Part shown: piece by piece, positions 17,901 through 20,900 of the stretch
Position numbering within the stretch: position 1 is the first letter of the stretch
Layout: each line of letters starts with the position of its first letter
DNA from: Escherichia coli
Lineage (GTDB): Bacteria; Pseudomonadota; Gammaproteobacteria; Enterobacterales; Enterobacteriaceae
Strand: one strand, 5' to 3'
Length of the DNA: 64,000 nt
Assembly: GCF_029227855.1 (NCBI RefSeq)
Contig: NZ_CP074356.1
Program-made: the position numbers

Positions 17901-20900
17901 CGCCCGTTACGTTGAAGCGCGAAAACTTTGGGGGCAGTTGATGATTGCCTCACGGTCGTTACTGCGAGAGGTAAAAACGACATTGCCGGATTCGGCAAGT
18001 GTAAGGGAGTTTGCCCGGCTGCAAATTGCCTTCGCCCATTGTTTACGCATGACATTACGCAAACAGCCACAGGCGGAAGTGCTGGCACATTATCTCAAGA
18101 CTGAAGATCTTCAGCGTGTACTGGCTTCGAACTCTCCAGCTAACCGTATCTTGTTAATAATGGGAGAATGGTTGGCGGTTCAGCGCCGCAATGGACAACT
18201 TTCAGATATCCTGTTTATTAGCCTCAACGATCGGCTTAACGATATTTCAGCGGTTCTGGCAGGCTGCGAGCGCATTGCCTATACGCCAATTCCCTTTGCC
18301 TACACCCTGATTTTGCATCGTACCGTTTATCTGTTTTGTATCATGCTGCCGTTCGCGCTGGTCGTGGACCTGCATTACATGACGCCTTTTATCTCTGTGC
18401 TGATTTCCTACACTTTTATTTCGCTGGATTGTCTGGCGGAAGAACTGGAAGATCCGTTCGGTACTGAAAACAATGATTTACCGCTGGATGCCATCTGCAA
18501 CGCTATTGAAATTGACCTGTTACAGATGAACGATGAAACAGAAATTCCAGCAAAAATTCTTCCCGATCGTCATTACCAGCTGACGTAATATTTACTCCGT
18601 ACGCCGGGCAACAATAAACAGACGCGGAAATGCCAGCAGTATCTCTCCGTTCTCTTGCAGTGGATACTGCTCTTCCAGCATCTGATGGTAGCGCGTAAGA
18701 AAATGCTGCTGTTCGCTCTCGGTCAGATCCTGTAACCACGGACGTAATCCAGTGGCGGCCACCCAATCGATAATCGCCTGGTGCGACGGCATCTGGTGAT
18801 AGTAGGTGGTTCGCCAGATATCGACCTCACATCCGGCTTCGCTCAGAATATCGTAGTAAGCATGAACGCCAGCCAGCGGCTCACGCCCGCGATCCGGATA
18901 ATTTTGTTCCCAGGCGACTTCGCGCATGAGCACATGGGTTGGCTCTAGCCAGTTATCTGGCATCTGTACTGCCAACACACCATGCGAATTAAGTAAAGAA
19001 ACCAGATGAGGGAACAATTCGTAGTGGTCGGGCAGCCATTGCAGTGAGGCATTAGCGAAAATCAGATCCAGTGCCTGTTCCGGTTGCCAGTTGCGGATGT
19101 CTGCTTCCACGAACTGGCAGTCTGGCAAAGCACTGCGCGCTTCAGCAATCATCGCCGGAGACGAGTCGATGCCTGTTATCCTGGCCGCAGGCCAACGTTG
19201 ATGCAGCAGGGCGGTGCTGTTACCTGGGCCACAGCCAAGATCGGCAACGTATTTGATATTCTCCAGCGGCACTCTGGCAAGCAGCTCCACCGCCGGACGC
19301 GATCGTTCAGCGGCAAAGTGCAGATATAAAGAGGGGTTCCAGTCAGACATTTTTTACTCCCGTCAGCGCGTTACCCCAATTGTAGATAAAATTGATAAAT
19401 TCGCCTCACGGCATCAACCCATTGAACAGACGTTTTTTACGCGGCCCGGTCATTAAAGATTCCAGTTTCGCGACACAGGTTTTGTAGTGGGGCGTGGTTT
19501 TATGGAATGCCACTGCGTCTTCATCTTTATAGGCTTCGTAGATATAAAAGCGCGAATTCACTTCCGGGTCCTGTAAGACATCGAAGCGCAAATTGCCTTC
19601 TTCCTGTACAGAGCCCAGGTGGTTCTGGCGAAAAACTTCGATAAACTCGTCAACCTTGTCTTCATGAACGTTAATTTCAACCAGTGTGACGTGCATAATT
19701 CTTCTCCTTAAATCCGCAGTTACTGTTTTTCACTCAGATAGAGTTCATATGCCCGATCAGCCGTTTCGTTATGGTGAACCACCGCCTGTACGGCTTTCAT
19801 CATCGCCACCGGATGGTCAGACTGGAAAATATTACGCCCCATATCCACACCAGAAGCGCCCTGATCGATAGCCTGCCAGCACATTTCCAGCGCCTCGCGC
19901 TCCGGTAGTTTTTTACCGCCAGCAATAACAATGGGTACCGGACATCCGGCAACAATCCGTTCAAAACCTTTTTCGACATAATAAGTTTTGATAATCTGCG
20001 CCCCCATTTCAGCGGCGATTCGAGTCGCGAGCGAGAAATAACGCTGATCGCGCACCATATCTTTGCCCACGCCAGTCACGGCCATGGTCGGCATTCCCAC
20101 TTTCATTCCGGCATCGACCAGCTGAATAATATTTTTGATCGACTGATGTTCATATTCGCTGCCGATATAAACCTGCGCCGCCACCGCGCAACTGTTCAGG
20201 CGCACGGCATCATCCATCGATAACGCCACGGCTTCATTACTTAATTCCGCCAGAATAGAGTTCGCACCAGACGCCCGCAGTACCACCGGCTTATTGGTCG
20301 CCGGGGGGACTACGCTGCGCAAAATGCCGCGCGTACACATTAATACATCGGCATGTTCAAACAGCGGGGCGATATTTATATCAATGCGTTCAAGTCCGGT
20401 AGTCGGCCCCTGAAAATAACCATGATCAAAGGCCAGCATCACGGTTTTACCCGTTTTCGGATTAAATATCCGCGATAAGCGTGACTGCATTCCCCAATCC
20501 AGTGCACCGCAACCTTTCAGGGTAAAAGGGATATTTTGTTGCGGTTGATCGGTACGAAAATCTTTACCATCTTTAATATCGTCTAAATCTGCCATAACGT
20601 ACTCCGGTTAAGTAATGCACATCAGAAATCGTATTTGCCGATATTCTCTTTGTTGAATATCACGCGCTCCGGTAACAGTACGATGCCATTACCATCCGCT
20701 TCGTAGTCATAGCCCTGAACGCTGTTTGGCGAGACTTCCACCTGACCTACGCCCTGAATATCCAGCTTGTCGCCCGTTTTCATTGATCCTTTTTTCAATA
20801 ATTCATCCACGACATAAACTGAAATTTTGCCTTGCTGAACCACATCCCACAGGCCAAATTCTTTCACCGTGCCGCGTTCCACATATGGACGCATCACGTT

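What the first reader, a model, noticed from the sequence alone, without database searches (positions are those of the whole stretch)
18586..18594. yneE and tam stop codons are 3 bp apart on opposite strands
yneE ends at 18588 and tam (last gene of the lsr-tam transcription unit, opposite strand) ends at 18592. There is no room for terminators, so the 3' ends of the two transcripts must overlap and convergent transcription could give mutual antisense interference.
Basis: seen in the sequence. Interest (0 to 1): 0.3.

Follow-up and report, generated by a model that had tools for sequence, protein, structure and literature searches.

The report
Tight tail-to-tail yneE–tam gene junction
Two E. 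coli genes on opposite strands end only 3 bases apart, so their RNAs run into each other; this is real, but it is a common arrangement in E. coli and this pair is already listed in a published catalogue of overlapping transcripts.

Summary
yneE (+) stops at 18586-18588 and tam (-) stops at 18592-18594, leaving the 3-bp spacer TAT. RefSeq annotation agrees, and the spacing is ungapped in 5,344 of 5,426 complete E. coli genomes.

It is not unusual. In 150 kb of this genome, 7 of 20 convergent gene junctions are 3 bp or less apart or overlap.

I found no convincing intrinsic terminator within about 590 nt downstream of either stop codon. Published data support overlapping transcripts. ExcludonFinder (NAR 2025) lists tam-yneE among 165 convergent excludons of MG1655. 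Huang et al. (mBio 2020) captured RNase III-cut 21-bp RNA duplexes over the last 25 nt of tam.

Mutual interference is not shown, and neither mRNA rises in RNase III mutants. The link to AI-2 is weak: lsr-negative E. coli and E. albertii keep the same junction, with tam standing alone.

Other genera carry 44 to 1,585 bp between the two genes, often including extra genes. The Escherichia lineage therefore lost the spacer.

Verdict: a real, ordinary, already catalogued convergent overlap of low interest.

The parts
17674..18588 (+). yneE CDS (bestrophin-family protein, 304 aa), stop TAA at 18586-18588
   Evidence: the C-terminus ...HYQLT* is conserved across genera
18589..18591 (.). 3-bp spacer 'TAT' between the two stop codons
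   Evidence: the length is fixed but the sequence varies in Escherichia (tat/caa/ctt); ungapped in 5,344 genomes
18592..19350 (-). tam CDS (trans-aconitate 2-methyltransferase, 252 aa), stop TAA read on the minus strand at 18594-18592
   Evidence: the C-terminus [15 protein letters not shown] is conserved
18591..18616 (.). Stretch equivalent to the K-12 region where two p19-captured 21-bp RNase III duplexes (both strands) were sequenced. It covers the last 25 nt of tam plus 1 spacer base. It shows that yneE-direction RNA reaches at least 28 nt past the yneE stop.
   Evidence: Huang 2020 Table S3; mapped to L002 3392-3417 with offset 15199; the window differs from K-12 by one SNP here
18568..18585 (+). 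Weak hairpin CGTCA-N8-TGACG just before the yneE stop; not a credible terminator
   Evidence: -3.9 kcal/mol and lost in E. whittamii, E. albertii and other genera; regional folds are no better than shuffles
17972..18002 (-). First hairpin plus T-tract met by tam read-through, about 590 nt past the tam stop and inside yneE antisense; a candidate end only
   Evidence: -9.1 kcal/mol, tail CGTTTTTA; weakened in E. whittamii (-4.0) and E. albertii (-1.4)
19211..19258 (+). First hairpin plus weak T-rich tail met by yneE read-through, about 620 nt past the yneE stop and inside tam antisense; a candidate end only
   Evidence: -12.6 kcal/mol, tail TTTGATAT
19462..19505 (+). Hairpin plus TTTT inside lsrG antisense, just downstream of a further p19 duplex (window 19436-19458); a possible far end of yneE-direction RNA
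19351..19406 (-). 56-bp lsrG-tam spacer with no terminator-like site, so lsr read-through into tam is possible in lsr-positive strains
17611..17659 (+). yneE leader hairpin plus UUUU. A strong Term-seq 3' end in K-12 maps to 17659, 15 nt before the yneE ATG. This may limit how much transcription enters yneE and reaches the junction.
   Evidence: Adams 2021 supplementary files 1 and 3; sequence and fold (-15.0 kcal/mol)

Best explanation
This is an ordinary, maximally compact convergent gene junction. An ancestor of Escherichia lost the whole yneE-tam intergenic region, so neither gene has a terminator of its own. RNA polymerase leaving yneE runs into the antisense strand of tam, and polymerase leaving tam runs into the antisense strand of yneE. 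tam is transcribed from its own stationary-phase (RpoS-dependent) promoter and, in lsr-positive strains, probably also by read-through from lsrACDBFG. The complementary 3' tails pair, and RNase III cuts the duplex. Shown: the anatomy, the lack of a local terminator, the overlap of transcripts in K-12, and the dsRNA cleavage products. Inferred: the read-through RNAs are untranslated and are ended some hundreds of nucleotides inside the opposite gene by Rho or by weak hairpins (18002-17980 on the minus strand; 19211-19250 or 19462-19497 on the plus strand). Also inferred: the effect on expression is small.
For: The 3-bp spacer is confirmed. No intrinsic terminator lies within about 590 nt of either stop, while the same scans recover the uxaB terminator and the yneE leader hairpin as positive controls. 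The junction hairpin is weak and not conserved. tam-yneE is one of 165 convergent excludons of MG1655, found in at least 50% of 58 RNA-seq data sets. Two 21-bp RNase III duplexes lie at the last 25 nt of tam; reads divided by RPM give 87.39 M reads, which identifies the stationary-phase sample. p19 dsRNA reads are 38-256 RPM for tam and 41-437 for yneE, against 4-10 for uxaB. Over yneE, sense and antisense reads are of the same order, 11.3 versus 19.4 RPM. Tight junctions are common: 7 of 20 in 150 kb, and all seven pairs are in the excludon list. The spacer was lost only in Escherichia; other genera have 44-1,585 bp, with both protein C-termini conserved.
Against: No 3' end has been mapped for either transcript. 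Adams 2021 Term-seq has no curated 3' end within about 600 nt either side of the junction, and no Rho-dependent region is annotated to tam, yneE or lsrG, probably because expression is low in those conditions. Rho involvement is therefore inference only. All transcript data come from K-12, not from this strain (96.9% identity). p19 duplexes occur at most genes, about 2,000 21-bp sites in that sample, so a duplex alone is weak evidence. In Huang's Table S1c, yneE and uxaB carry the wrong strand label, so it is ambiguous which column is sense. The antisense RNA could in principle start at an internal promoter rather than by read-through, although no promoter-like site was found near the junction.
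Confidence: 0.75

Rival explanations
1. Functional excludon. The overlap has been kept because it makes tam (or lsr-tam) and yneE mutually exclusive, through polymerase collision and RNase III decay, so that stationary-phase or AI-2 induction lowers the bestrophin-type channel.
For: The pair is in the excludon catalogue. dsRNA cleavage products lie at the junction. The 3-bp spacing is fixed in 5,344 E. coli genomes and shared with E. whittamii and E. albertii. tam is strongly induced in stationary phase.
Against: No reciprocal expression has been shown for this pair. In rnc-14 and rnc-38 mutants, tam (71.7 to 37.9 and 23.3 RPM) and the yneE columns fall or stay flat rather than rise. The spacer sequence and the yneE stop codon vary freely. 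Fixed length is expected anyway, because indels would destroy a stop codon or a C-terminus. Other genera place unrelated genes between the two. One third of nearby convergent junctions are equally tight.
Confidence: 0.12
2. Embedded intrinsic terminators. Each transcript ends at a defined hairpin inside the opposite coding sequence (tam at 18002-17980; yneE at 19211-19250 or 19462-19497), which would give a fixed overlap of about 600-900 nt.
For: Hairpin plus T-tract candidates exist. ExcludonFinder reports that 146 of 165 convergent excludons have TransTermHP terminators lying inside the neighbour's unit. A p19 duplex at window 19436-19458 sits just upstream of the 19462-19497 hairpin.
Against: The number of terminator-like sites equals the shuffle expectation, 4 found against 3.1 expected. 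The stems are weak and the tails poor. The minus-strand hairpin is not conserved in E. whittamii or E. albertii. No Term-seq 3' end is recorded at the K-12 equivalents.
Confidence: 0.2
3. No real overlap in vivo. The two genes are not transcribed in the same cells, or one is essentially silent, so the tight spacing has no transcript-level consequence.
For: Both genes are weakly expressed in exponential phase. A strong 3' end 15 nt before the yneE ATG suggests that much yneE-promoter transcription stops in the leader.
Against: Perfectly paired duplexes with reads from both strands at the tam 3' end require both RNAs to be present together. RNA-seq overlap was seen in at least half of 58 data sets.
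Confidence: 0.05

Closest known systems
Convergent excludons of E. coli MG1655 (ExcludonFinder catalogue, Sanmartin et al., NAR 2025, PMC12288877)
   Same: This is the same locus: 'tam-yneE' is an entry in Table 1. It is a convergent pair with a short intergenic distance and RNA-seq coverage overlapping across the gene ends.
   Different: The catalogue gives no locus-specific analysis. It could not validate convergent excludons with p19 data, whereas Huang's Table S3 does contain duplexes at the tam 3' end. Mutually exclusive expression, which the excludon concept implies, has not been shown for this pair.
Neighbouring tight convergent pairs in the same genome: yddH/pptA (3 bp), ynfC/speG (2 bp), fumC/tus and ydgC/folM (4-bp overlaps)
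   Same: They share the same architecture and are listed in the same catalogue.
   Different: None in kind. They show that the yneE/tam spacing is typical.
Bidirectional intrinsic terminators between convergent genes (described by Ju, Li and Liu 2019; from my own knowledge, paper not held)
   Same: Both are solutions for ending two converging transcripts in little space.
   Different: Here there is no GC-rich hairpin flanked by A and T tracts. The spacer is 3 bp, and the nearest hairpin is -3.9 kcal/mol and not conserved.
Rho/NusG suppression of antisense transcription (Peters et al. 2012; from my own knowledge, paper not held)
   Same: Untranslated read-through RNA antisense to a gene is the classic Rho substrate, and this is the inferred way these transcripts end.
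   Different: It was not tested here. No Rho-dependent region is annotated to tam or yneE in Adams 2021 supplementary file 2.

Membership tests
Convergent excludon (operational definition of ExcludonFinder) | Adjacent genes on opposite strands, tail to tail | tested here: met
Convergent excludon (operational definition of ExcludonFinder) | Transcript boundaries (coverage above 50% of the gene mean) overlap in at least 50% of RNA-seq samples | not testable with these tools
   No RNA-seq data are available here. It is reported as met for MG1655 in PMC12288877 Table 1; this strain itself has not been assayed.
Convergent excludon (biological concept) | Sense-antisense duplex formed and processed by RNase III | not testable with these tools
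   Published for K-12: two 21-bp duplexes with 2-nt overhangs at the tam 3' end in Huang 2020 Table S3. I mapped them to window 18591-18616.
Convergent excludon (biological concept) | Reciprocal (mutually exclusive) expression of the two genes | not tested
   No data exist for this pair. The rnc mutant RNA levels in Huang Table S1c show no derepression, which argues weakly against it.
Bidirectional intrinsic terminator | Stable GC-rich hairpin between the two stops, flanked by an A-tract and a T-tract | tested here: not met
   The spacer is 3 bp. The only adjacent hairpin is -3.9 kcal/mol with an 8-nt loop, and it is absent in other Escherichia. Local folds give z-scores of -0.15 and -0.64.
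lsrACDBFG-tam transcription unit | tam lies directly downstream of lsrG on the same strand with no terminator between them | tested here: met
   Met in this window: a 56-bp gap with no terminator-like site. Not general: lsr is absent upstream of tam in E. coli strain 1105 and in E. albertii, and in more than 95% of B2 strains.
lsrACDBFG-tam transcription unit | tam expression depends on the lsr promoter or AI-2 | not testable with these tools
   The literature argues against dependence. tam rises in stationary phase in lsr-negative strain 83972 and is unchanged when lsr is restored. It is RpoS-dependent, 86-fold. tam read density exceeds that of lsrB and lsrF.

The most novel reading that the evidence does not exclude
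Loss of the yneE-tam spacer in the Escherichia lineage, including a conserved small membrane-protein ORF present in other genera, created a selected antisense switch. In this reading, stationary-phase or AI-2-driven tam transcription silences the YneE bestrophin-type channel through polymerase collision and RNase III.
Probability: 0.08. Interest if true: 0.4.

Novelty: already known. Interest (0 to 1): 0.13.

Why it matters
The finding matters little by itself. It is one of many E. coli gene pairs whose transcripts overlap because there is no room for terminators, and it is already catalogued. It could serve as a clean test case, because the spacer is 3 bp, no local terminator exists, and one partner (tam) is strongly inducible. 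That would help decide whether such overlaps regulate anything or are tolerated by-products of genome compaction. It also cautions against reading tam as an AI-2 gene, since the junction and tam expression persist without lsr.

Tried and rejected
- **Local intrinsic or bidirectional terminator.** Rejected. The consensus scan matched shuffle expectation. A custom hairpin plus T-tract scan found nothing within about 590 nt. The junction hairpin is weak and not conserved, and local folds are not better than shuffles.
- **Structured or known RNA at the junction.** Rfam gave no credible match.
- **Direct 3'-end evidence.**
  - Adams 2021 Term-seq tables have no 3' end near the junction and no Rho region for these genes.
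  - SMRT-Cappable-seq supplements do not mention the genes.
  - No supplements are held for Dar and Sorek 2018 or for ExcludonFinder.
  - Ju 2019 and Peters 2012 are not held.
- **GC-skew profile as a Rho-site proxy.** Only mild C>G at 18550-18649 on the plus strand and mild G>C at 17850-18049. This was too weak to use.
- **Rarity of the 3-bp gap.** Rejected by the 150-kb survey, where 7 of 20 convergent junctions were as tight or tighter.
- **Spacing tied to the lsr operon.** Rejected by lsr-negative genomes that have the same junction.
- **Family assignment for the small ORF found in other genera.** Pfam and NCBIfam gave no hits.

Full report
**Observation**

The plus strand at 18580-18600 reads ctgacgTAAtatTTActccg. 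The yneE ORF ends with TAA at 18586-18588. The annotated start is 17674, giving 304 aa. The tam ORF on the minus strand (19350 down to 18592, 252 aa) ends with TAA, seen as TTA at 18592-18594. Three bases, TAT, lie between the stops.

Pfam confirms both identities: Bestrophin_2 over residues 1-283 of YneE, and SAM-methyltransferase domains in Tam. The window is identical to E. coli strain VCSW5 over the region searched. RefSeq annotation of that strain and of MG1655 gives the same 3-bp gap. An 83-nt query centred on the junction aligns as one ungapped piece in 5,344 of 5,426 complete E. coli genomes.

**Is it unusual?**

No. I read the RefSeq annotation of 150 kb of the same genome, covering the window and both flanks, and found 20 convergent CDS junctions. 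Their gaps, in bp, are:

| Junction | Gap (bp) |
|---|---|
| bioD/clcB | -48 |
| ydeM/hypothetical | -35 |
| fumC/tus | -4 |
| ydgC/folM | -4 |
| ynfC/speG | 2 |
| yddH/pptA | 3 |
| yneE/tam | 3 |
| the other 13 | 24, 24, 35, 38, 44, 44, 45, 48, 50, 55, 56, 95, 114 |

Seven of the 20 are 3 bp or less apart or overlap. This is a small regional sample, not a whole-genome count.

**Terminators**

- The consensus scan found four terminator-like sites in 17300-19800, against 3.1 expected from shuffles.
- The only site at the junction is a 5-bp stem with an 8-nt loop (18568-18585). It folds at -3.9 kcal/mol and is lost in E. whittamii, E. albertii and all other genera checked.
- Folding 141 nt around the junction on either strand is no better than shuffled sequence, with z-scores of -0.15 and -0.64.
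- A custom hairpin plus T-tract scan recovered the uxaB terminator (17484-17505, -13 kcal/mol) and a yneE leader hairpin as positive controls.
- That scan found nothing within about 590 nt downstream of either stop.
- The first candidate for tam read-through is 18002-17980 on the minus strand (-9.1 kcal/mol).
- The first candidates for yneE read-through are 19211-19250 and 19462-19497 on the plus strand.
- The minus-strand candidate is not conserved in other Escherichia species.
- Rfam found no known RNA family.

**Published transcript evidence (K-12)**

- ExcludonFinder (PMC12288877) defines an excludon as a pair whose RNA-seq-defined transcript boundaries overlap. It lists 'tam-yneE' among 165 convergent excludons seen in at least 50% of 58 MG1655 transcriptomes. 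This finding is therefore already catalogued.
- Huang et al. 2020 (PMC7373196) captured RNase III products with the p19 protein.
  - Table S3 holds two perfectly paired 21-bp duplexes with reads from both strands at 1606103-1606129 (U00096.2). In that version, tam is 1605370-1606128 and yneE is 1606132-1607046.
  - I mapped the duplexes to L002 3392-3417, equivalent to window 18591-18616.
  - They show yneE-direction RNA reaching at least 28 nt beyond the yneE stop and paired with tam mRNA.
  - Reads divided by RPM give 87.39 million, which matches the stationary-phase sample.
- Per-gene p19 reads are 38-256 RPM for tam and 41-437 RPM for yneE, against 4-10 RPM for uxaB.
- In total RNA, the two strands over yneE give 11.3 and 19.4 RPM. 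yneE is mislabelled '+' in that table, so it is ambiguous which value is sense.
- Caveat: such duplexes occur at about 2,000 sites in that sample.
- Term-seq (Adams 2021) records no 3' end within about 600 nt of the junction and no Rho-dependent region for these genes. The actual ends are unmapped.

**Interference**

Nothing shows that either gene affects the other. In the rnc-14 and rnc-38 mutants, tam RNA falls from 71.7 to 37.9 and 23.3 RPM, and the yneE columns do not rise. This is not what RNase III-mediated mutual repression would predict. The measurement is a single one, taken at low expression.

**The lsr link**

In this window tam follows lsrG after 56 bp with no terminator-like site, so read-through from lsr is plausible. 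The junction does not depend on lsr, however.

- E. coli strain 1105 has no lsr locus. There tam is divergent from hipB and still lies 3 bp from yneE.
- E. albertii likewise has the 3-bp junction with no lsrG hit in the sequence held upstream of tam, about 1.7 kb.
- More than 95% of B2 strains lack lsr, while tam is widespread.
- tam rises in stationary phase in an lsr-negative strain and is unchanged when lsr is restored (PMC12263705).
- tam is 86-fold RpoS-dependent in EDL933 (PMC2907692).

**Origin**

A scan of one genome per species returned 80 yneE loci.

- The 3-bp spacing occurs only in E. coli, E. whittamii and E. albertii.
- Elsewhere, where tam is the convergent neighbour, the gap is 44 bp (Citrobacter sedlakii), 182 bp (Yokenella), 199 bp (Pluralibacter), 505-613 bp, 977 bp or about 1,585 bp.
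- Both protein C-termini are conserved across genera (...HYQLT* for YneE and ...[15 protein letters not shown] for Tam).
- Within Escherichia, the spacer sequence (tat/caa/ctt) and the yneE stop codon (TAA/TGA) vary.
- The Escherichia lineage therefore lost the entire spacer while keeping both ORFs intact.
- The larger spacers hold unrelated genes and a conserved small ORF.

**Mechanism (best estimate)**

Shown: the anatomy, the absence of a local terminator, transcript overlap in K-12, and RNase III cleavage of the paired tails in K-12.

Inferred: read-through RNA is untranslated after each stop codon and is ended by Rho or by weak internal hairpins several hundred nucleotides into the opposite gene. 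The regulatory effect is probably small.

**Verdict**

The finding is real, ordinary and already known. The interference and AI-2 parts are unsupported.

Noticed in passing
L074 3497-3601; L071 3143-3250; L053 3870-4034; 23 loci in all: A conserved small ORF (34-36 aa, hydrophobic, motif ATAWDLS[LF]V) lies just downstream of yneE on the same strand in Kluyvera, Pseudocitrobacter, Pluralibacter, Kosakonia, Yokenella and others. It is present even where tam is absent. In Yokenella and Pluralibacter its 3' end overlaps the tam stop codon. It has no Pfam or NCBIfam match. It was not detected by tblastn in the Escherichia or Citrobacter loci.
   Followed up: partly
window 17611-17659 (+): The yneE leader carries a hairpin (-15 kcal/mol) followed by UUUU. 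A strong 'orphan' Term-seq 3' end in K-12 (1609037 minus strand, about 47,600 reads) maps to 17659, 15 nt before the yneE ATG. This could be a leader attenuator or a small RNA of roughly 100 nt from the promoter-like sites at 17494-17550.
   Followed up: partly
window 19436-19458 (K-12 1605260-1605283): A further p19-captured RNase III duplex lies near the 3' end of lsrG, just upstream of a plus-strand hairpin plus TTTT (19462-19505). Antisense RNA therefore reaches, or starts, about 850 nt beyond the yneE stop.
   Followed up: no
L084 (E. coli NCTC11151) 4475-5615: A deletion fuses a truncated yneE to a truncated hipA. It removes the yneE 3' end, tam and the whole lsr locus.
   Followed up: no
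L087 (E. coli strain 1105) 3544-4876: In this lsr-negative strain, tam is monocistronic and divergent from hipB across a 307-bp region, and it has the same 3-bp junction to yneE.
   Followed up: partly
L006 (Citrobacter braakii) 3412-3822 (-): A 136-aa cysteine-rich ORF lies between yneE and tam on the minus strand. Its stop overlaps the yneE stop by 4 bp, so tight convergent junctions at the yneE 3' end have arisen more than once.
   Followed up: no
window 48524-48528 region (L085) and L086 39527-39530, 11086-11089, 14577-14580: Other equally tight convergent pairs lie nearby: yddH/pptA (3 bp), ynfC/speG (2 bp), fumC/tus and ydgC/folM (4-bp overlaps). All are in the published excludon list.
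   Followed up: partly
window 14381-15799 (+): The diguanylate cyclase gene upstream of uxaB is intact here (sensor-domain DGC, 472 aa). It is annotated as an N-terminally truncated pseudogene (dgcF) in MG1655.
   Followed up: no
Huang 2020 Table S1c rows b1520 and b1521: yneE and uxaB are labelled '+' in Table S1c but '-' in Table S1b of the same paper. The sense and antisense columns for these genes may therefore be swapped.
   Followed up: no
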